Virus record (IMG/VR): IMGVR_UViG_2706794676_000012
Length of the DNA stretch: 39,720 nucleotides
Source of the DNA: a virus
Taxonomy: Duplodnaviria; Heunggongvirae; Uroviricota; Caudoviricetes
Reading direction: 5' to 3' (one strand)
This document shows, piece by piece, positions 8,102 through 32,874 of the stretch. The first letter of the stretch is position 1; every line of letters starts with the position of its first letter. The notes below the pieces were generated by a model. That model worked only from the letters and a program-made list of their open reading frames with translations, was not told where the DNA came from and made no database searches. The translations under genes were made by a program, and so were the position numbers.

Positions 8102-9173
8102 GTGATTTCTCCTACCGTCAGCAGCTCACTGTCTCCCGCCTGAACTGACGTCAGCGGACTGCGCACTTCAAAATCCTCCAGATTTTTCACCCCTGCCACC
8201 GCCCGCCAGAAAGACGACGGCAGAACCAGACCGCCGGGCCGGGATTCGTTATACAACAGGTCGGTCAGCGCCTGTTTTACGGCCGCCTGATTCTCCGGTG
8301 TTTTCGGGATGATCCTGATGCTGAAGGGCACCGGCTTATTGGTCAGTTTAAACACGGTCACCGTCGGCCCCAGAGGCTGTCCGACAGGCTGGCCGGTCGC
8401 NNNNNNNNNNNNNNNNNNNNNNNNNNNNNNNNNNNNNNNNNNNNNNNNNNNNNNNNNNNNNNNNNNNNNNNNNNNNNNNNNNNNNNNNNNNNNNNNNNNN
8501 NNNNNNNNNNNNNNNNNNNNNNNNNNNNNNNNNNNNNNNNNNNNNNNNNNNNNNNNNNNNNNNNNNNNNNNNNNNNNNNNNNNNNNNNNNNNNNNNNNNN
8601 NNNNNNNNNNNNNNNNNNNNNNNNNNNNNNNNNNNNNNNNNNNNNNNNNNCATCCGCACCACCGGTGATCCCCGTTCCGGTCACCGTGGCCGTCTGGTTG
8701 ATCCCCGCCTGCGGTGTGATAAATGTCAGTTTTGTCCCTGCCGGGGCATTCCCCGCACGACCGGCACTTTCGGCTTCCACACTGACATTCAGCGTACCGG
8801 CCTTACCGGTCAGGGAGGTGGTGATACGGTAAACCACGCCATCACTTCGCTGGAGAAGCACACCTTCCTTGATCCCCGCATCCGTGGTCAGCATCAGCTG
8901 AACCGGCCCGTCCCCCCGAGAGGCAGGCTTACGCATGACGCCCCAGAATGCACAGTGTTTCAGCAGTTCGGCTTCATCGGCTTCGGTCGGGATGATCTGA
9001 CGCGCAATCCAGGCCAGATGCTCATGCTCCTGAGCAGATAACCCTGCCTGAGCGTAAGCAATGGCATTCAGGGTGGTTTCATTCACACCCGGCTGCGAGC
9101 CGGGCAGGCGCTGGCTGATATCCTGCTGTGTCTGCGTGATTAACTGTGCCAGCGGTAAAGGCTGATAAGGCAT
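8092..9173 (-). CDS. Baseplate J-like protein (Mu gp47-like), interrupted by N-run 8401-8650
   Basis: N-terminal part (8651-9173) and C-terminal part (8092-8400) are in different frames on either side of the N-run; combined length ~360 aa fits a baseplate J-like protein. Confidence 0.65.
8401..8650. other. N-run / assembly gap (250 nt)
   Basis: Run of n; reading frame is not preserved across it. Confidence 1.
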
Positions 9174-11226: not shown

Positions 11227-11494
11227 NNNNNNNNNNNNNNNNNNNNNNNNNNNNNNNNNNNNNNNNNNNNNNNNNNNNNNNNNNNNNNNNNNNNNNNNNN
11301 NNNNNNNNNNNNNNNNNNNNNNNNNNNNNNNNNNNNNNNNNNNNNNNNNNNNNNNNNNNNNNNNNNNNNNNNNNNNNNNNNNNNNNNNNNNNNNNNNNNN
11401 NNNNNNNNNNNNNNNNNNNNNNNNNNNNNNNNNNNNNNNNNNNNNNNNNNNNNNNNNNNNNNNNNNNNNNNNNNNNNNNNNNNNNNNNNNNNNN
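11227..11494. other. N-run / assembly gap (268 nt)
   Basis: Run of n covering the N/P gene junction. Confidence 1.
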
Positions 11495-12743: not shown

Positions 12744-12993
12744 NNNNNNNNNNNNNNNNNNNNNNNNNNNNNNNNNNNNNNNNNNNNNNNNNNNNNNNNN
12801 NNNNNNNNNNNNNNNNNNNNNNNNNNNNNNNNNNNNNNNNNNNNNNNNNNNNNNNNNNNNNNNNNNNNNNNNNNNNNNNNNNNNNNNNNNNNNNNNNNNN
12901 NNNNNNNNNNNNNNNNNNNNNNNNNNNNNNNNNNNNNNNNNNNNNNNNNNNNNNNNNNNNNNNNNNNNNNNNNNNNNNNNNNNNNNNNNNNNN
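12744..12993. other. N-run / assembly gap (250 nt)
   Basis: Run of n covering the 3' end of the tape measure gene. Confidence 1.
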
Positions 12994-15171: not shown

Positions 15172-15735
15172 TCAGTTCGCGGAAGGTGACGCGGTATTCA
15201 CGGGATTCCCCGAANNNNNNNNNNNNNNNNNNNNNNNNNNNNNNNNNNNNNNNNNNNNNNNNNNNNNNNNNNNNNNNNNNNNNNNNNNNNNNNNNNNNNN
15301 NNNNNNNNNNNNNNNNNNNNNNNNNNNNNNNNNNNNNNNNNNNNNNNNNNNNNNNNNNNNNNNNNNNNNNNNNNNNNNNNNNNNNNNNNNNNNNNNNNNN
15401 NNNNNNNNNNNNNNNNNNNNNNNNNNNNNNNNNNNNNNNNNNNNNNNNNNNNNNNNNNNNNNNNTCATGTGGACTTCACCGGTATCGGCCACGAACTCAA
15501 TCGTGACCGCAGTCCAGGTGTTGATTTCATCGGCAGCCGGTGAACCTTCTCCGCCCGCCGGGAATTTACAGTCCAGCGTCGCCTCACGGGGTTTCTCGCG
15601 ATAGCCGTAAACTTTCGCGCCTTTCACCACTTCACGCTCAAAGCCGGACGGGGAGAACGTGGCCCCCTCAAGGGTGTCGTACTCCTGCCCGTTCACACGG
15701 ATGGTGGCCGTGCCCTGATACTGTTTTCCGCTCAT
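15172..15735 (-). CDS. Tail tube protein (Mu M-like), interrupted by N-run 15215-15464
   Basis: Immediately downstream of the sheath gene; start MSGKQYQGTATIRVNGQEYDTLEG... Confidence 0.65.
   Translation of the reverse strand: MSGKQYQGTATIRVNGQEYDTLEGATFSPSGFEREVVKGAKVYGYREKPREATLDCKFPAGGEGSPAADEINTWTAVTIEFVADTGEVHMXXXXXXXXXXXXXXXXXXXXXXXXXXXXXXXXXXXXXXXXXXXXXXXXXXXXXXXXXXXXXXXXXXXXXXXXXXXXXXXXXXXXSGNPVNTASPSAN
15215..15464. other. N-run / assembly gap (250 nt)
   Basis: Run of n inside the tube gene. Confidence 1.
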
Positions 15736-26916: not shown

Positions 26917-27473
26917 GGCTTTTGTCTGCTCGCGTAAATCACGCAGNNNNNNNNNNNNNNNNNNNNNNNNNNNNNNNNNNNNNNNNNNNNNNNNNNNNNN
27001 NNNNNNNNNNNNNNNNNNNNNNNNNNNNNNNNNNNNNNNNNNNNNNNNNNNNNNNNNNNNNNNNNNNNNNNNNNNNNNNNNNNNNNNNNNNNNNNNNNNN
27101 NNNNNNNNNNNNNNNNNNNNNNNNNNNNNNNNNNNNNNNNNNNNNNNNNNNNNNNNNNNNNNNNNNNNNNNNNNNNNNNNNNNNNNNNNNNNNNNNNNNN
27201 NNNNNNCACACCCGGAACGGTGGCGCGGCCTTCCGCCACATCCTGACCCCGGCCGGTCAGTTCAGCGATGAAATAACCGTTAACAAGCGTGCGCTTACGC
27301 ACCAGTCCCTGCTCGGCAAGCCAGGCAATGTGGGTATGAACGGTGTCGCGGGACACGCGGTGACCGTAATCATCCAGGCAGTCCTGAAGCACGGATTCGC
27401 CCAGTTCGCCGTTGTAATCCGCCAGCGACCGCAGAATGACAAGACGCTGATCTTCAGTAATGAAATCACTCAT
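26913..27473 (-). CDS. Winged-helix DNA-binding protein (candidate terminase small subunit), interrupted by N-run
   Basis: N-terminal MSDFITEDQRLVILRSLADYNGELGESVLQDCLDDYGHRVSRDTVHTHIAWLAEQGLV; position upstream of the terminase block. Confidence 0.45.
   Translation of the reverse strand: MSDFITEDQRLVILRSLADYNGELGESVLQDCLDDYGHRVSRDTVHTHIAWLAEQGLVRKRTLVNGYFIAELTGRGQDVAEGRATVPGVXXXXXXXXXXXXXXXXXXXXXXXXXXXXXXXXXXXXXXXXXXXXXXXXXXXXXXXXXXXXXXXXXXXXXXXXXXXXXXXXXXXXXXXCVIYASRQKP
26947..27206. other. N-run / assembly gap (260 nt)
   Basis: Run of n. Confidence 1.
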
Positions 27474-28660: not shown

Positions 28661-29161
28661 TCAGACTTTCGGCAAATCGTAACGACATAACCATTCATCC
28701 GCCGAACGGCGGGCCTCAAGACCGGGGAGTTTTACCCCCTTTGAATAAATCCAGCGGATATACTGCTTACAGGACGCGGGCATCTGCCCGGCATTGATAA
28801 GGCGCAGGAGCGTGGAGTTGCGAAAGTTCGTTTCACCGGCCCAGAAAATCCAGGAGGCCAGCGCCACCGTCTGACCACGGGTAAGCGGCACCTGAACATG
28901 ACGATCGATAGCCGCAAAGGCCCATTTCATGTCCTTTTCCAGCAGCTCCAGACACTCTTCATCAGTTTTTGTCATCCCCGGTTTCACATCCGGGCCGGTA
29001 TGGCCGTAACAGATGGTGGGGGTGCCGGTGGGATCAATGTACGTGGTGTTTTCTTTCCCTTCCCAGTAGCCGGTGTAGTGCGTGGCAATGGTGAACGTCC
29101 CGGCTCCGGCCAGAACAAGGGCAATCAGCTTTTTACGCAGGGGTGCGGGGAGTTTTGGCAT
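28661..29161 (-). CDS. Endolysin (phage lysozyme), likely signal-anchor-release type
   Basis: 166 aa; N-terminal hydrophobic segment LIALVLAGAGTFTIAT; first late gene after C. Confidence 0.75.
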   Translation of the reverse strand: MPKLPAPLRKKLIALVLAGAGTFTIATHYTGYWEGKENTTYIDPTGTPTICYGHTGPDVKPGMTKTDEECLELLEKDMKWAFAAIDRHVQVPLTRGQTVALASWIFWAGETNFRNSTLLRLINAGQMPASCKQYIRWIYSKGVKLPGLEARRSADEWLCRYDLPKV

Positions 29162-29166
29162 TGTTA

Positions 29167-29196
29167 CGCTGTCTCATGGTGTTCTCTGAGTCAGCG
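29167..29196. promoter_or_regulatory. Dyad symmetry in C-lys intergenic region (candidate late promoter control site)
   Basis: CGCTGTCTCA (29167-29176) and TGAGTCAGCG (29187-29196) are inverted repeats (9/10) with a 10-bp spacer. Confidence 0.3.
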
Positions 29197-29232
29197 TAAC
29201 CGTGAGGAAAAGGGGGCAGGATTTGCGGAATA

Positions 29233-29655
29233 TCAGAAAAGCCGTGGCTGCGTGCGTTCCTGATGCAGGCGACGCTGGTTGCGGATAACGGAGTAAATCT
29301 GCGTCTCTGACATCTGGTAGTGGCGGCGCAGGGTTTCAATTTTTTCGCCCTGGCTCCAGCGGGAAAAAATTTCATTATTGCGCAGTTCGGTGAAAAGGGA
29401 TTCACCGACCGGGAGATAATAACCACGCCCGCCCATGTACCCGGCCTGTGCGGCTGCAACCTTACGGGCAAGCATTCCCGCCTGAGCAGGTTCAATCCCC
29501 TGACGGTGCAGTTCAGCACTGATCACATCAACCAGGTCCCGCAGCGTGCCGGGCCAGTTCTTTTTCAGCTCATCATCAGGAATATCATCCAGACGGTCAA
29601 TCAGCGCGTGCAGCTGTTCGCTGTCACCAAACATGCTCATCTGTGTTTCAGCCAT
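29233..29655 (-). CDS. Mor/C-family transcription activator (most likely late activator C)
   Basis: 140 aa (size of Mu C) with C-terminal helix-turn-helix-like ...MSETQIYSVIRNQRRL; lies just downstream of an early-operon terminator and upstream of lys. Confidence 0.7.
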   Translation of the reverse strand: MAETQMSMFGDSEQLHALIDRLDDIPDDELKKNWPGTLRDLVDVISAELHRQGIEPAQAGMLARKVAAAQAGYMGGRGYYLPVGESLFTELRNNEIFSRWSQGEKIETLRRHYQMSETQIYSVIRNQRRLHQERTQPRLF

Positions 29656-29690: not shown

Positions 29691-29720
29691 AAAATAAAAA
29701 TCCCGCGCTGTGGCGGGATT
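29691..29720 (-). terminator. Rho-independent terminator ending the early operon, overlapping the C promoter region
   Basis: Minus-strand reading: TCCCGC-CACAGC-GCGGGA stem-loop followed by TTTTTATTTT; C start codon 36 nt downstream. Confidence 0.65.
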
Positions 29721-29737
29721 TGGGGTTAACGGGGGAA

Positions 29738-29988
29738 TNNNNNNNNNNNNNNNNNNNNNNNNNNNNNNNNNNNNNNNNNNNNNNNNNNNNNNNNNNNNNN
29801 NNNNNNNNNNNNNNNNNNNNNNNNNNNNNNNNNNNNNNNNNNNNNNNNNNNNNNNNNNNNNNNNNNNNNNNNNNNNNNNNNNNNNNNNNNNNNNNNNNNN
29901 NNNNNNNNNNNNNNNNNNNNNNNNNNNNNNNNNNNNNNNNNNNNNNNNNNNNNNNNNNNNNNNNNNNNNNNNNNNNNNNNNNNNNNNN
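29738..29988. other. N-run / assembly gap (251 nt)
   Basis: Run of n; probably hides the 3' part of gemA and possibly a mor-like gene. Confidence 1.
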
Positions 29989-30226
29989 TGGCGCGAATTT
30001 TGGCGGTCACCGTACCCGGTTTTAAGGCCCGGTTAACCGGCTTCTGACGCACTTTAAAACCGCGTTTTTTGAAAACATCCAGCACGCGGGATAACTCACC
30101 GGGTGACATATCACGGCAACTGGATTTGCCGGTGGCTGCCAGCAGCGCGGATGTATAGGTATCATGGTCAAGCTGTAGATCGCGTTTTGCGACATGTATT
30201 AAGGTAATCAGGGAAGCGCGATTCAT
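29989..30226 (-). CDS. GemA-like (Mu gp16-like) protein, N-terminal part; remainder in N-run
   Basis: MNRASLITLIHVAKRDLQLDHDTYTSALLAATGKSSCRDMSPGELSRVLDVFKKRGF; position just upstream of the Mor/C-family activator. Confidence 0.6.
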
Positions 30227-30240
30227 TATCGTGGCTCCAT

Positions 30241-30268
30241 AAAAAATGGGCGGTGTTACCGCACCGCC
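30241..30268 (-). terminator. Rho-independent terminator (minus strand) immediately upstream of gemA
   Basis: Minus-strand reading: GGCGGTG-CGGTAA-CACCGCC stem-loop followed by ATTTTTT. Confidence 0.55.
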
Positions 30269-30296
30269 ATGTCAATTAACATAAAAGGAAAAATCT

Positions 30297-30536
30297 ATGT
30301 CAGATATAAAAAATGCACTTGATGTTGCCGCATTCACAATGGCTGGAAATCTTATGGTAACCCTGTTCGATAAGGGGCTGATTTCCCGTGAGGAGGCAAT
30401 ACATATTATCAATCTCGCTCAAAAAAACTCTACCCCGGAAAATGCAGAAGATATCCAGGATGGCTCATATATTAATACCGACTGGCATTTCGACAATCTC
30501 CGGGCCTGTATGGGGATTACCGCTGAAAAAGATTAA
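30297..30536 (+). CDS. Hypothetical protein (79 aa), antisense-oriented gene inside the early region
   Basis: ATG at 30297 preceded by AAGGA; AT-rich; hydrophobic N-terminal segment; convergent with the early operon; no ORF on the opposite strand here. Confidence 0.5.
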   Translation: MSDIKNALDVAAFTMAGNLMVTLFDKGLISREEAIHIINLAQKNSTPENAEDIQDGSYINTDWHFDNLRACMGITAEKD

Positions 30537-30813
30537 AAATTTTTGCATAATGTTCAGATGTAAGAATTGCTGAACCATCAACACCGAGCCTACGGCGAAC
30601 GTATTCCTCGCGGGCTATTTTATTATCCAGAGATACAGCATCCTTAATCAGGTTAATCTCCCGCTCCATTATCAAAAGGGCTTCTCTGGCTGCAAGATTT
30701 TCTTTTATCGCATATTCGATAATGTCCCGCATACGTTCAAGCATGCCGATTTTAGCCAGTTCTTCGTCGATAGATTTAGGCGCAAATTTGATTTCTTTTT
30801 CCATATTATTCAT
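30517..30813 (-). CDS. Hypothetical helical protein (98 aa), translationally coupled to the upstream zinc-ribbon ORF
   Basis: ATG 30813 overlaps the zinc-ribbon stop (GATGAATAATATGG); AT-rich. Confidence 0.55.
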   Translation of the reverse strand: MNNMEKEIKFAPKSIDEELAKIGMLERMRDIIEYAIKENLAAREALLIMEREINLIKDAVSLDNKIAREEYVRRRLGVDGSAILTSEHYAKIFNLFQR

Positions 30814-30949
30814 CCTCACAATTTATACATGCAGTGTCGTCGCCCATATCGCAGTGGTTACATTTTATCTCACCACAATGTGGGCACTCTTTCAGATACT
30901 CCGGGTCCTCATTTCCACAGGTGGGACATTCAACAATTTGCTCATCCAT
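30806..30949 (-). CDS. Small zinc-ribbon protein (47 aa), not in ORF track
   Basis: MDEQIVECPTCGNEDPEYLKECPHCGEIKCNHCDMGDDTACINCEDE with four CxxC pairs; start overlaps the stop of the upstream gene. Confidence 0.5.
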   Translation of the reverse strand: MDEQIVECPTCGNEDPEYLKECPHCGEIKCNHCDMGDDTACINCEDE

Positions 30950-31274
30950 TATGTATCCCCTGTAATTCCGGCAAGGCCGAAAGATGGCACCAGTGCGTCA
31001 CCTGTCCGTCCTCATCTTCAAGGCAGGCTCCGGTTTCTTCATCAATAAAAAAGCCTTCATACCCCATATGGCCGATGCGCAGTTCCTGTTGGTCACCATA
31101 CTGAACAATCAGCACGACAGCCTCCATATCAGGCGGAAATGCGTCATCCAGTGAATGCCAGGGATAACCGCGCAAATCCCCGAAATAAACGCCGGTCAGC
31201 GTTCCGCCACAGAGCGGCATTCCGGCGGCACACACAAGAGGTTCATCTGATTCAACAAATAAGGTCGTTATCAT
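30942..31274 (-). CDS. Hypothetical protein (110 aa)
   Basis: Overlapping start/stop with neighbours (operon); acidic C-terminal half. Confidence 0.5.
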   Translation of the reverse strand: MITTLFVESDEPLVCAAGMPLCGGTLTGVYFGDLRGYPWHSLDDAFPPDMEAVVLIVQYGDQQELRIGHMGYEGFFIDEETGACLEDEDGQVTHWCHLSALPELQGIHNG

Positions 31275-31822
31275 GGCGTTAACTCCCGTAATACAGCGTC
31301 CTCGGCAGTCCGGCGACGGTAATAAACTGCGTGAGCAGAATGTTCAGATATTCCAAACTTTTCGCCAATTTCCCGGAATGACAGACGGCGTGGGTAATCG
31401 GAATCACGCAGCTCACGTATAAGACGTACATCATCATCAGATATGCGCGTGCCGGGGCGTAACTCTCCGCACTTTGTTAATCCAGCACCAATCATTCCTG
31501 CCCGACATCTGACAGAATCTTTATTACGTCCGAGATATTCTCCCATTTGCTGGCAGGTCATTGTTCTGGCATTTTTTCGAATAAACTTATCTTCATCAGG
31601 TGTAAATCTTGGGTGTTTATATTTCAGTAACTCCGGGTATGAACTGCGCAATACACCAGTCCGGTTATATACAGCCCAGACAGTTCTTTTTATTCTGGCA
31701 GCAATATCCTTAACCGGGGTGGATGAATAAAGCGCAATCAGCAGCGCATCTTCTTCAGGTGTCCACGGACGGACATGAGCGGGGGCGCGACCTTTTAGTC
31801 CCATGGGTTGTAATTTCATCAT
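31271..31822 (-). CDS. Putative DNA-binding protein with two SANT/Myb-like W-x-EED/F-x-PDED repeats
   Basis: WTPEEDALLIALY and FTPDEDKFIRKN repeats plus C-terminal helix-turn-helix-like LSFREIGEKFGISEHSAHAVYYRRR. Confidence 0.5.
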   Translation of the reverse strand: MMKLQPMGLKGRAPAHVRPWTPEEDALLIALYSSTPVKDIAARIKRTVWAVYNRTGVLRSSYPELLKYKHPRFTPDEDKFIRKNARTMTCQQMGEYLGRNKDSVRCRAGMIGAGLTKCGELRPGTRISDDDVRLIRELRDSDYPRRLSFREIGEKFGISEHSAHAVYYRRRTAEDAVLRELTP

Positions 31823-31825
31823 GCA

Positions 31826-32341
31826 TCACCCCCTGACTCGCTTTTCAGCAGCATAAAACTCATCAGACAGTATTTCGGTCATTTTCTGTTTTGCGGGTTT
31901 TACGCCGCACTGAAGGTAAATCACATCGTCAACGCAGAACCACTTCACAGGGCCAAACAGGATTGCCGAGAAATCAATACCCAACCAGAACAACAGCGCA
32001 TCGGTTCTGGCATACGTGACGGGCGAATATTCACGCCACAGACTGTTCAGTTCATCAGAGGCAACACGCAGGGTTTTAGGGATACGTGATGTGCGCGGTG
32101 TGCAGCTCCAGCCATTCGACGCAGTCGGTTTTCGCCATAAGTCGCGATGAAAAGGATATTTGTCCTCCGTAAAACGCAGTCCCTTAAAGTAAAATCCACT
32201 GATACCGGATACAAATACCGACCGGCACGCAACATTCAGCACGGCCTCAAGGCGTTTTGCCTCATCCTTAACTTTCTGGCAGTCCTGCTGGTATTTTTGC
32301 CACGCAGCCAGCGCGGAAGGGTTTGATGTTTTAAAGAACAT
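31826..32341 (-). CDS. Hypothetical early protein (171 aa)
   Basis: ORF in early operon; no recognisable motif. Confidence 0.5.
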   Translation of the reverse strand: MFFKTSNPSALAAWQKYQQDCQKVKDEAKRLEAVLNVACRSVFVSGISGFYFKGLRFTEDKYPFHRDLWRKPTASNGWSCTPRTSRIPKTLRVASDELNSLWREYSPVTYARTDALLFWLGIDFSAILFGPVKWFCVDDVIYLQCGVKPAKQKMTEILSDEFYAAEKRVRG

Positions 32342-32874
32342 TACGCCACCTCCGCAGATATCCCGGCAGGCGCTGCTGTCCGGTCAACAATCAGGTAGCG
32401 CAGAACATGTTCAGTGATATTCCAGCCGCTTAAACCGCAGATAATGACGCCCAGGCGTATGTCGATATACGCCATCACAAACTGGGGCACGCCTTCTTTC
32501 ATGGCCTGCTCATCAACTTCAGCCACCACATAAACGGTTTCACAGGTCAGAACGCCCTGAGCAAATTCCCACGCCATCGACGGAATATCATGCCCCTCAA
32601 TCCATGGCAGGGATTTTCTGAAGCCGCACCACTGAACATCATCAGCCGCAGATTCCTGGCTGCATTTGCGACGAACCGGCTGCACCGGGCGGGGACGCGG
32701 AATATCATAAAAACCGTTACATTCCGTCAGCACGCCTGCATCAACCGCATCACGCAGAAAATAAACCATGGAGGATGGCGGCATATTCATTTTTTCAGCC
32801 AGTACACCGCAGGTCAGGCGGCCATAAATACACAGCCAGTTTTTAACCCCTTCAAGCACTTTTGCATCAATCAT
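32341..32874 (-). CDS. Hypothetical early protein (177 aa), possible N-terminal winged helix
   Basis: ATG at 32874 after a 145-bp AT-rich intergenic region downstream of gam. Confidence 0.5.
   Translation of the reverse strand: MIDAKVLEGVKNWLCIYGRLTCGVLAEKMNMPPSSMVYFLRDAVDAGVLTECNGFYDIPRPRPVQPVRRKCSQESAADDVQWCGFRKSLPWIEGHDIPSMAWEFAQGVLTCETVYVVAEVDEQAMKEGVPQFVMAYIDIRLGVIICGLSGWNITEHVLRYLIVDRTAAPAGISAEVA

What the first reader, a model, noticed from the sequence alone, without database searches (positions are those of the whole stretch)
30241..30950. AT-rich cargo module in the early region: convergent 79-aa gene, internal terminator, and a zinc-ribbon peptide coupled to a 98-aa protein
This stretch has much lower GC than the phage core. 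On the minus strand a 47-aa four-CxxC zinc-ribbon ORF (30806-30949, missing from the ORF track) is translationally coupled through ATGA-type overlaps to the upstream 110-aa ORF and the downstream 98-aa helical protein. The operon is then followed by ~250 bp containing only a plus-strand 79-aa gene with its own SD, and by a minus-strand intrinsic terminator (30241-30268) just before gemA. The layout suggests a horizontally acquired module, possibly anti-defense, toxin-antitoxin or host takeover; none of the proteins is recognisable to me.
Basis: inference. Interest (0 to 1): 0.65.

Follow-up and report, generated by a model that had tools for sequence, protein, structure and literature searches.

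The report
Mu gp13–gp14–gp15 early-region segment
This AT-rich stretch is not newly acquired cargo: it is the E. coli Mu-like prophage's version of phage Mu's long-catalogued but still uncharacterised early genes gp13, gp14 and the oppositely oriented gp15, bracketed by two one-way transcription terminators just upstream of gemA.

Summary
The interpretation changes. The 47-aa four-CxxC ORF is the homologue of phage Mu gp13 (88% identity over the ribbon). The '98-aa' protein is Mu gp14, and it more likely starts at ATG 30804, giving 95 aa. The plus-strand 79-aa gene is a divergent member of the Mu gp15 family. It has the same position, orientation and about 70-nt spacing from gemA as in Mu, D108 and SfMu. 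So the layout is ancestral to Mu-type phages and is not an acquisition by this prophage. The surrounding region is mosaic, however, and low GC is shared with Mu.

New anatomy found here:
- The hairpin before gemA is conserved across lineages.
- A second terminator-like hairpin, for the gp15 transcript, lies inside gp14's codons. It is kept by compensatory changes in all seven subtypes.
- gp14 and gp15 always travel together, whereas gp13 also occurs without gp14.

No sequence, profile or fold search gave a function. My best reading is that these are accessory early proteins plus a separately transcribed convergent gene, with attenuated read-through into gemA. The genes are catalogued but uncharacterised, so interest is modest.

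The parts
30942..31274 (-). 110-aa acidic early ORF (phrog_6925), absent from Mu. Its stop overlaps the gp13 start by 8 nt (ATGGATGA).
   Evidence: phrog_6925, E 2e-51; only a weak sub-threshold DUF551 hit; pN/pS 0.12-0.21; present in many E. coli Mu-like prophages.
30806..30949 (-). gp13 homologue: a 47-aa, very acidic protein with four CxxC motifs (probably two Zn sites). SD GGGGA lies 6 nt upstream.
   Evidence: phrog_5584 E 3e-26; 88% identity to Mu gp13 over residues 7-47; Cys and the KCNHCDMGDDTAC motif are invariant; pI 4.05; not called by PGAP.
30517..30804 (-). gp14 homologue, most likely 95 aa from ATG 30804 (alternative in-frame starts at 30813 ATG and 30819 GTG). Predicted four-helix protein.
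   Evidence: phrog_6075 E 6e-44; 47-55% identity to Mu and D108 gp14; GAGGA 8 nt upstream of 30804; AF2 model pLDDT 86; only 18 representative clusters in 1.84 billion proteins.
30297..30536 (+). gp15-family gene (79 aa), convergent with and overlapping gp14 by 20 nt. It has a conserved N-terminal helix-loop-helix of about 45 aa and a variable acidic tail.
   Evidence: phrog_32893 E 1e-45. Cross-hits: D108 gp15 5e-7 and Mu gp15 6e-4; the L064 variant bridges phrog_38610 and phrog_32893. pN/pS 0.27 in its own frame against 0.6-1.6 in the others. Annotated by PGAP. AF2 pLDDT 82-88 for residues 11-40.
30587..30626 (+). Terminator-like hairpin (30587-30616) plus T-rich tail (30617-30626) on the gp15-sense strand, embedded in gp14 codons (D-N-K-I-A-R-E-E-Y-V-R-R-R-L). 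Candidate terminator of the gp15 transcript.
   Evidence: The equivalent hairpin plus T-run is found in Mu, D108, SfMu-type, L061 and L064. 88.5% of cells are paired against 40-58% for slid controls, with 5 compensated pairs. The window's own copy is weakened by one synonymous G>A (-11.2 against -17.2 kcal/mol).
30241..30268 (-). Early-strand intrinsic-terminator-like hairpin GGCGGTG-CGGTAA-CACCGCC followed by U6, 3 nt before the gemA SD (GGAG 30238-30235; gemA ATG 30226).
   Evidence: The stem is conserved and the loop variable in 17 of 21 distinct gemA-upstream sequences, with one compensated pair in JE86. It lies inside the feature annotated 'semi-early promoter' in Mu record AF083977.
30227..30296 (.). 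70-nt divergent intergenic region between the gemA ATG and the gp15 ATG.
   Evidence: Spacing of 69-71 nt is kept in all gp15 subtypes and in one DUF2513 type. No convincing sigma-70 promoter was found on either strand.

Best explanation
**Identity (shown).** The stretch is the promoter-distal end of the semi-essential early (SEE) region of an E. coli Mu-like prophage. It holds the homologues of Mu gp13 (Zn-ribbon peptide), gp14 (small helical protein) and the oppositely oriented gp15, directly upstream of gemA.

**Anatomy (shown).**
- gp13 and gp14 are tightly packed cistrons of the long early operon on the minus strand.
- gp15 is a real, separately oriented protein gene with its own SD.
- A conserved hairpin plus U-run sits at the end of the early-sense unit, just before gemA.
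- A second hairpin plus U-run, in the gp15 sense, is embedded in gp14's coding sequence.

**Mechanism (inferred).**
- Early transcripts are partly terminated, or attenuated, before gemA. gemA and the Mor/C-type activator would then depend on read-through or on a separate promoter, as annotated for Mu.
- gp15 is made from its own transcript, which is fully antisense to the 3' end of the early transcript. Its expression should therefore be anticorrelated with early lytic transcription, which suggests a lysogeny-phase gene.
- gp13 and gp14 are non-essential accessory early proteins that act on host targets. gp13's extreme conservation and acidity suggest a small Zn-stabilised binder or inhibitor of a conserved host protein.

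Their biochemical function is not established by anything found here.
For: **Homology and synteny**
- PHROG matches.
- blastn to Mu, D108 and SfMu.
- Mu annotations, including Mup15 on the opposite strand.
- Gene maps of about 70 loci.
- gp15 family links.
- The 69-71-nt gemA-gp15 spacing.

**Coding evidence**
- pN/pS 0.2-0.4 in own frames.
- SD sequences.

**Terminators**
- Scans and folds.
- Conservation of the gemA-proximal hairpin.
- Covariation of the gp14-embedded hairpin.

**Linkage**
- gp14 was always found with gp13 upstream and a gp15-family gene downstream.
- gp13 lacks gp14 in 21 of 49 IMG/VR loci.

**Literature**
- The SEE region encodes small proteins of unknown function (PMC8705779).
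- gem is reported to be expressed in lysogens (PMC3820752, citing Paolozzi and Ghelardini 1992).
Against: - No promoter for gp15 could be identified (and manual inspection).
- The window's own copy of the gp14-embedded hairpin is weakened and was not picked up by the scanner.
- The U-tract after the gemA-proximal hairpin is short in Mu and D108, so termination there may be weak or absent.
- The stem of that hairpin hardly varies: one compensated pair only. Structure is therefore not proven against a protein-binding palindrome.
- The current GenBank Mu record replaces gp15 with a forward-strand ORF, Mu_54. Within-Mu-type substitutions are too few (5) to decide between them.
- Several natural gp15 variants are frameshifted or truncated after about residue 45.
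- There are no expression data and no functional hits of any kind.
Confidence: 0.6

Rival explanations
1. The stretch is a horizontally acquired cargo module whose proteins are anti-defence factors or a toxin-antitoxin or abortive-infection pair. Examples would be acidic gp13 or gp15 acting as inhibitors or DNA mimics, or gp14/gp15 forming a convergent toxin-antidote pair.
For: - Low GC.
- A mosaic, cassette-like region with alternative convergent pairs at the same site: gp14/gp15 or a 107-109-aa protein with DUF2513.
- gp13, gp15 and the 110-aa protein are strongly acidic.
- gp15 evolves very fast, at about 20-28% identity between subtypes whose gp13 is 88% identical.
Against: - The order and orientation match Mu itself, so this prophage did not acquire the module.
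- No PADLOC, Pfam or NCBIfam hit. The Lar restriction-alleviation models score far below threshold (E 0.2-0.43).
- No fold match.
- gp13 occurs without gp14 in 21 of 49 loci.
- A convergent pair on separate transcripts is not the usual toxin-antitoxin layout.
Confidence: 0.2
2. The plus-strand 79-aa ORF is not a protein gene. The interval is a regulatory spacer, perhaps producing an antisense or non-coding RNA. Alternatively the true gene is on the early strand, as in the updated Mu record (Mu_54).
For: - AF083977 now annotates Mu_54 on the early strand and drops gp15.
- No recognisable promoter for the 79-aa gene.
- Frameshifted or truncated natural variants exist.
- The within-Mu-type comparison is uninformative.
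Against: - Its own frame has the lowest pN/pS of six frames (0.27, from 27-29 substitutions).
- The N-terminal motif is conserved in six or seven highly diverged subtypes, linked by profile hits.
- It has a good SD.
- RefSeq Mu and PGAP both call it.
- The window has no early-strand ATG ORF of 40 aa or more across this interval.
- A dedicated downstream terminator is conserved.
Confidence: 0.1
3. The conserved inverted repeat GGCGGTG-N6-CACCGCC before gemA is not a terminator. It is a DNA operator or promoter element of the divergent gemA/gp15 control region, the 'semi-early promoter' of Mu, bound by a conserved phage or host protein.
For: - It lies inside the Mu feature annotated as semi-early promoter.
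- The stem sequence is almost invariant while the loop varies, as expected for a palindromic binding site with a free spacer.
- The U-run is weak in Mu and D108.
- The fixed 69-71-nt divergent spacing suggests a structured control region.
Against: - A T-rich run always follows it on the early strand.
- In the window it is a textbook terminator: a 7-bp GC stem plus U6.
- JE86 keeps pairing through a T-A to C-G change.
- The two readings do not exclude each other.
Confidence: 0.2

Closest known systems
Phage Mu gp13 (E14), gp14 (E15) and gp15 (Mup15) of the semi-essential early region; PHROGs 5584, 6075 and 8747/32893/38610
   Same: Same gene order gp13-gp14-<gp15-gemA and the same orientations. 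There is a 1-nt gp13/gp14 junction, a 3'-overlapping gp14/gp15 pair, about 70 nt between the gp15 and gemA starts, and the same hairpin before gemA. Identities to Mu are gp13 88% and gp14 49%; gp15 matches at motif level.
   Different: gp13 lacks Mu's 13-residue N-terminal extension, because it follows a 110-aa gene here instead of gp12. Two extra genes (183 aa Myb/SANT-like and 110 aa) are inserted between gp12 and gp13. gp15 belongs to a different subtype (21% identity to Mu's). The U-run of the gemA-proximal hairpin is much stronger than in Mu.
Convergent-transcription and antisense arrangements in temperate phages (my recollection, not tested here: coliphage 186 pR/pL face-to-face promoters, P22 sar/ant, lambda oop/cII)
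   Same: Two transcription units face each other and overlap, so activity of one should interfere with the other. This suits lysis/lysogeny-phase-specific expression.
   Different: No promoters or transcripts are mapped here. The overlap covers a whole protein gene plus the 3' end of another. Each unit appears to end at a one-way terminator, one of them written into the partner's codons.
Lar (Rac prophage) and other small Zn-ribbon phage proteins
   Same: Small, Cys-rich, early-expressed prophage proteins with CxxC pairs.
   Different: There is no significant similarity (PF14354 E 0.43, TIGR03655 E 0.2, both far below threshold). gp13 has four CxxC pairs and a distinctive KCNHCDMGDDTAC motif.
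Prophage 'morons' (my recollection, not tested here: independently transcribed genes flanked by their own signals)
   Same: gp15 is a small gene in the opposite orientation, with its own SD and terminator, at a site where alternative genes (DUF2513) occur in relatives.
   Different: No promoter was identified. The gene's position is ancestral and conserved across Mu-type phages rather than sporadic.

Membership tests
Mu gp13 family (phrog_5584) | Significant sequence similarity to Mu gp13, including the four CxxC pairs and the KCNHCDMGDDTAC motif | tested here: met
   phrog_5584 E 3.1e-26; 88% identity over residues 7-47; invariant columns.
Mu gp13 family (phrog_5584) | Position in the early operon immediately upstream of gp14 and downstream of gp12 | tested here: inconclusive
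   It is upstream of gp14 as in Mu (1-nt gap), but it is preceded by the 110-aa gene, not by gp12. Position is not strictly defining, because 21 of 49 gp13 loci lack gp14.
Mu gp13 family (phrog_5584) | Zinc binding | not testable with these tools
   Inferred only from eight invariant Cys residues in CxxC pairs.
Mu gp14 family (phrog_6075) | Full-length sequence similarity to Mu/D108 gp14 | tested here: met
   phrog_6075 E 5.8e-44; 47-55% identity in the alignment; tblastn E 7e-27 to Mu.
Mu gp15 family (Mup15; phrogs 8747, 32893, 38610) | Sequence relatedness to Mu gp15 | tested here: met
   Pairwise identity is weak (21%). Profile links: Mu gp15 to phrog_32893 E 5.9e-4; D108 gp15 to phrog_32893 E 5.4e-7; L064 variant hits phrog_38610 at 4.8e-15 and phrog_32893 at 5.9e-14; shared N-terminal motif.
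Mu gp15 family (Mup15; phrogs 8747, 32893, 38610) | Opposite orientation between gp14 and gemA, 3' overlap with gp14, about 70 nt from the gemA start | tested here: met
   spacing 70-71 nt in the window, Mu and D108; 69 nt in L061.
Rho-independent terminator (gemA-proximal, minus strand) | GC-rich stem-loop immediately followed by a U-run on the transcribed strand | tested here: met
   7 pairs (6 GC), 6-nt loop, tail CATTTTTTAT; fold z-score -2.1.
Rho-independent terminator (gemA-proximal, minus strand) | Actual termination of transcripts at this site | not testable with these tools
   No transcript data are available. The U-run is weaker in Mu and D108.
Rho-independent terminator (gp15-sense, inside gp14) | Stem-loop plus U-run downstream of the gp15 stop, conserved with compensatory changes | tested here: met
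   88.5% paired, 5 compensated pairs, 2/500 shuffles. The window's copy is imperfect (-11.2 kcal/mol).
Toxin-antitoxin or known anti-phage defence systems (PADLOC) | Match of any component to a known toxin, antitoxin or defence protein model | tested here: not met
   No PADLOC hit at E<=1 for nine proteins; no Pfam or NCBIfam toxin/antitoxin domains.
Lar restriction-alleviation family (PF14354 / TIGR03655) | Score above the curated threshold | tested here: not met
   11.3 bits against a 28.6 cutoff; 12 bits against a 39.6 cutoff.
DUF551 (for the 110-aa ORF) | Score above the Pfam gathering threshold | tested here: not met
   14.6 bits against 22, E 0.062. Its own family is phrog_6925.

The most novel reading that the evidence does not exclude
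The gp14/gp15 pair is a self-contained convergent cassette. Each transcript ends at a one-way terminator, and one of these is written into the partner's codons. The cassette would act as a phase switch. gp15, a fast-evolving protein with a conserved 45-aa helical core, would be made only when early lytic transcription is off. In the lysogen it would then serve as an exclusion or defence factor, or as a regulator of the adjacent gem promoter. The ultra-conserved Zn-ribbon gp13 would be a small inhibitor of a conserved host protein. The alternative cassette at the same site (a 107-109-aa protein with DUF2513) would be a functional analogue.
Probability: 0.2. Interest if true: 0.55.

Novelty: already known. 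Interest (0 to 1): 0.3.

Why it matters
The finding itself is ordinary. It re-identifies Mu gp13-15, which have been listed as ORFs for decades and sit in PHROGs and RefSeq with no known function.

Three points have modest value:
- They bear on a live annotation conflict in the model phage Mu. RefSeq has Mup15 on the reverse strand, while the updated GenBank record has Mu_54 on the forward strand. The comparative evidence here favours the reverse-strand gene.
- They define a conserved two-terminator, convergent architecture at the entry to gemA-mor. This could explain how early read-through into the regulators of middle and late transcription is metered.
- They show that gp14/gp15 move as a unit, whereas gp13 is an independent, widely spread Zn-ribbon gene.

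Each point can be tested directly with standard Mu genetics.

Tried and rejected
**Function searches that gave nothing**
- Pfam, NCBIfam and PADLOC.
- PHROGs: all matching families are 'unknown function'.
- PDB sequence and profile searches.
- Rfam over 29990-31300: no match.

**Homologue searches**
- The large protein searches returned only 8-10 close clusters each.
- The exhaustive profile search for gp14 returned 18 representative clusters with no fusions.

**Hypotheses rejected or left open**
- gp15 as a truncated relative of the DUF2513 proteins that replace it in some prophages: rejected (hhalign probability 2.8%).
- A sigma-70 promoter for gp15, or for gemA, in the 70-nt intergenic region or the 5' end of gemA: only a 9/12 match inside gemA, no better than shuffles.
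- Deciding Mu_54 against gp15 within the Mu subtype by substitution pattern: only 5 differences, so uninformative.

**Literature**
- Searches for gp13/14/15, their accession numbers, anti-defence work on Mu and Mu antisense transcription found nothing specific.
- The paper cited for Mu's semi-early promoter (PMID 9454718) is not held.
Full report
**1. What is there**

The window is a Mu-like prophage of Escherichia coli. The stretch 30100-31900 is 100% identical to E. coli strain 600029. The early operon runs on the minus strand: gam, gp11 (32341-32874), gp12 (31826-32341), then the region in question, then gemA (29726-30226, partly N-masked) and a Mor/C-type activator (29233-29655).

- The stretch 30241-30950 is 41.5% GC against 53.5% for the window, within the lowest 3.7% of 710-bp windows.
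- The 47-aa ORF (30806-30949, minus strand) has four CxxC pairs.
- A 110-aa ORF precedes it, with an 8-nt ATGGATGA overlap.
- A helical protein gene follows it.
- A 79-aa gene lies on the plus strand (30297-30536), with AAGGA 7 nt upstream of its ATG.
- A 7-bp GC-rich hairpin plus T6 run lies on the minus strand (30268-30241) and ends 3 nt before the gemA SD.

Two corrections apply.
- The downstream protein most likely starts at ATG 30804, giving 95 aa. That start has GAGGA 8 nt upstream, lies 1 nt after the gp13 stop, and is the start used in Mu, by PGAP and in all homologues. ATG 30813 abuts the SD.
- The 79-aa gene overlaps the 3' end of that gene by 20 nt.

PGAP does not call the 47-aa ORF in the identical RefSeq genome. 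The 'missing from the ORF track' remark is therefore an annotation gap and not evidence against the gene.

**2. Identity**

- The 47-aa protein belongs to phrog_5584 (E 3e-26) and is 88% identical to Mu gp13 (E14) over the ribbon.
- The 95/98-aa protein belongs to phrog_6075 (E 6e-44) and is 47-55% identical to Mu and D108 gp14 (E15).
- RefSeq Mu (NC_000929) annotates gp15 (Mup15, 88 aa) on the opposite strand between gp14 and gemA.
- The window's 79-aa protein shares gp15's N-terminal motif (xDVAxFxxAGNLMxxLxxKGxIxxEEAxxII). It is linked to gp15 by profile hits: D108 gp15 to phrog_32893 at 5e-7, and Mu gp15 to phrog_32893 at 6e-4. A variant in locus L064 hits the D108-type family at 5e-15 and the window-type family at 6e-14.
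- A further subtype is present in SfMu-type phages.
- In all of them the reverse gene starts 69-71 nt from the gemA ATG and overlaps the 3' end of gp14.
- Mu's own gp13-15 segment is also lower in GC (45.5-47.5%) than its flanks (52-55%).

The layout is therefore ancestral to Mu-type phages and not an acquisition by this prophage.

**3. Are the ORFs real genes?**

I compared the window with relatives at 88-98% nucleotide identity. Each ORF shows purifying selection in its own frame: gp13 0.27-0.31, gp14 0.28-0.42, the 110-aa ORF 0.12-0.21. For the 79-aa gene the value is 0.27 from 27-29 substitutions, against 0.6-1.6 in the other frames.

The updated GenBank Mu record (AF083977) replaces gp15 with a forward-strand 55-aa ORF, Mu_54. 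Within the Mu subtype there are only five substitutions, which cannot decide between the two. However, the window has no comparable forward-strand ORF, and the cross-subtype conservation is in the reverse frame.

Caveat: several natural gp15 variants are frameshifted or truncated after about residue 45. So only the N-terminal helix-loop-helix (AF2 pLDDT 82-88) looks constrained.

**4. Distribution and linkage**

- The three families are narrow. The indexed protein search returned 8-10 clusters at 90% identity for each. An exhaustive profile search of 1.84 billion proteins returned 18 representative clusters for gp14, all stand-alone proteins of about 100 aa.
- Of 5,426 complete E. coli genomes, 51 match the 710 bp and 14 carry the whole window-type cassette. 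In contrast, 232 match the flanking genes.
- In every locus with gp14 there is a gp13 upstream and a gp15-family reverse gene downstream. In some Mu-type loci a 107-aa gene lies between gp13 and gp14. One locus (L052) has a partial deletion of gp15.
- gp13 is more widely spread: 49 IMG/VR loci and one Thauera genome. It lacks gp14 in 21 of the 49.
- Where gp14 is absent, gp13 is followed by a different 107-109-aa protein paired with a reverse DUF2513 gene, or directly by gemA. In non-Mu phages it is followed by unrelated early genes such as exonuclease-like proteins.
- In one type the ribbon is fused in frame to an N-terminal domain of about 190 aa (phrog_6418).

The 'zinc-ribbon peptide coupled to a 98-aa protein' is thus not an obligate pair. 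The tight unit is gp14/gp15.

The interval between gp12 and gemA is a mosaic of small cassettes. This agrees with the description of the SEE region as poorly conserved and coding for small proteins of unknown function (PMC8705779; PMC3820752).

Across lineages gp13 stays at about 88% identity, while gp14 drops to about 50% and gp15 to about 20-28%.

**5. The two terminators**

*Hairpin before gemA.*
- The hairpin GGCGGTG-N6-CACCGCC is found in 17 of 21 distinct gemA-upstream sequences. The stem is conserved, the loop is variable, and a T-rich tail always follows on the early strand.
- JE86 keeps pairing through a T-A to C-G change.
- The hairpin is absent where no reverse gene exists, and in one DUF2513 type with a 31-nt spacer.
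- The U-run is strong in the window type (U6) and weaker in Mu and D108.
- In Mu the hairpin lies inside the feature annotated 'semi-early promoter'. I could not read the cited paper.

*Hairpin inside gp14.*
- On the gp15-sense strand, 24-50 nt past the gp15 stop and inside gp14's codons, every subtype has a 9-14-bp hairpin followed by a T-rich run. It is strong in Mu, D108, SfMu-type, L061 and L064.
- The run is supplied by the invariant gp14 N-K codons (AAT AAA).
- On a codon-registered alignment of eight sequences, 88.5% of cells pair against 40-58% when the partner is slid. Five pairs carry changes on both sides, against 1.3±1.0 in shuffles (2 of 500 reach it).
- This holds even though the encoded peptide differs between subtypes (AREEYVRRRL, AHNNIVCREL, ARDAFIRRRL, ARENIIRREL, ARDALVRHKL).
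- The window's own copy carries one synonymous G>A that weakens the stem: -11.2 against -17.2 kcal/mol in the commonest variant.
- In the gp14 sense no U-run follows, so the element is one-way.
- The DUF2513 cassette has an analogous hairpin inside its partner gene.

**6. How it most likely works**

*Shown:* identity, synteny, coding status, tight cistron packing, the two conserved hairpin-plus-T-run elements, and their strand specificity.

*Inferred:*
- The long early transcript is attenuated just before gemA. gemA and the Mor/C-type activator therefore rely on read-through or on their own promoter. A semi-early promoter is annotated there in Mu, and PMC3820752 cites constitutive gem expression in lysogens.
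- gp15 is transcribed separately, antisense to the 3' end of the early transcript, and terminated inside gp14. Its expression should be anticorrelated with lytic early transcription.
- gp13 and gp14 are accessory early proteins. gp13 is 47 aa, pI about 4, with eight invariant Cys residues, and is probably a Zn-stabilised binder of a conserved target.

I could not find a promoter for gp15. This is the weakest link.

No search gave a biochemical function:
- Pfam, NCBIfam, PADLOC and PDB sequence or profile searches.
- Rfam.
- The literature.

**7. Comparison with known systems and verdict**

Membership in the Mu gp13, gp14 and gp15 families is met by sequence and by position. Membership in Lar, DUF551, toxin-antitoxin or defence families was tested and not met. 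The arrangement works like convergent or antisense units known from other temperate phages, and gp15 looks moron-like, but neither likeness is demonstrated.

The genes are catalogued in RefSeq and PHROGs, and in Mu since its first sequence, but they are uncharacterised. I therefore rate the finding as already known and of modest interest (0.3).

The useful by-products are:
- comparative support for the reverse-strand gp15 in Mu;
- the codon-embedded terminator;
- the conserved attenuator-like hairpin at the entry to gemA.

Noticed in passing
window 29698-29721 (-): A strong intrinsic-terminator-like hairpin (9 pairs, AAATCCCGCC-ACAGCG-CGGGATTT, followed by TTATTTT) lies between the gemA stop and the Mor/C-type gene. 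With the hairpin before gemA, early transcription would meet two successive terminators before reaching the activator.
   Followed up: no
window 28661-29655 (-): There is only one Mor/C-family activator (29233-29655). It is closer to Mu C (40% identity) than to Mu Mor (28%), and the lysozyme gene (28661-29161) follows it directly. Mu's gp18-20 and second activator are absent, which suggests a shortened regulatory cascade.
   Followed up: partly
window 30942-31822 (-): Two genes absent from Mu are inserted between gp12 and gp13. One is a 183-aa Myb/SANT-like HTH protein (phrog_323, 'D5-like transcriptional regulator'). The other is a very acidic 110-aa protein (phrog_6925, sub-threshold DUF551). 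They are joined by an ATGA overlap and are common in E. coli Mu-like prophages.
   Followed up: partly
Mu records: NC_000929 7896-8162 (complement) vs AF083977 7960-8127: RefSeq Mu annotates gp15 on the reverse strand. The updated GenBank record instead annotates a forward-strand ORF, Mu_54, and a 'semi-early promoter' at 8151-8217. Cross-subtype conservation favours the reverse-strand gene, but within-Mu-type data (5 substitutions) are uninformative.
   Followed up: partly
L037 2368-3126; also L038-L040: In some Mu-like prophages the gp13 Zn ribbon is fused in frame to an N-terminal domain of about 190 aa with no known function (phrog_6418, related to phrog_2510). This fusion replaces gp12.
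   Followed up: partly
window 30804-30819 and equivalent sites in L001, L002, L037, L041, L060, L068: The gp13 3' end and next-gene 5' end ('...NCEGE*' overlapping 'MKVN(N/R/K)M...') is conserved even where the downstream gene differs (gp14, the 107-109-aa protein, or an exonuclease-like gene). It looks like a recombination joint for cassette exchange.
   Followed up: no
L006 990-1400; L037-L040, L055-L063: At the gp15 position some prophages carry a reverse-oriented DUF2513 protein (136-138 aa, phrog_585). It is paired convergently with a 107-109-aa protein (phrog_1988) and has its own hairpin inside that partner. hhalign shows no relation to gp15.
   Followed up: partly
L066-L074 (IMG/VR), L025 (Thauera propionica NZ_NOIH01000022): gp13-like Zn-ribbon peptides (60-77% identity) occur among small early genes of phages with no detectable Mu gam, gemA or mor. 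They sit next to DnaQ-like or other exonuclease-like genes.
   Followed up: partly
P0013, P0016-P0018; L065 (reverse ORF upstream of gemA): Natural gp15 variants have a frameshifted or truncated C-terminal half. The alternative frame equals window ORF 30388-30573. This suggests that only the N-terminal 45 residues or so are constrained, or that these copies are decaying.
   Followed up: no
window 8401-8650, 11227-11494, 12744-12993, 15215-15464, 26947-27206, 29739-29988: There are six runs of N, each 250-268 nt. One removes the middle of gemA. They produce the spurious low-GC dips in the composition profile.
   Followed up: no
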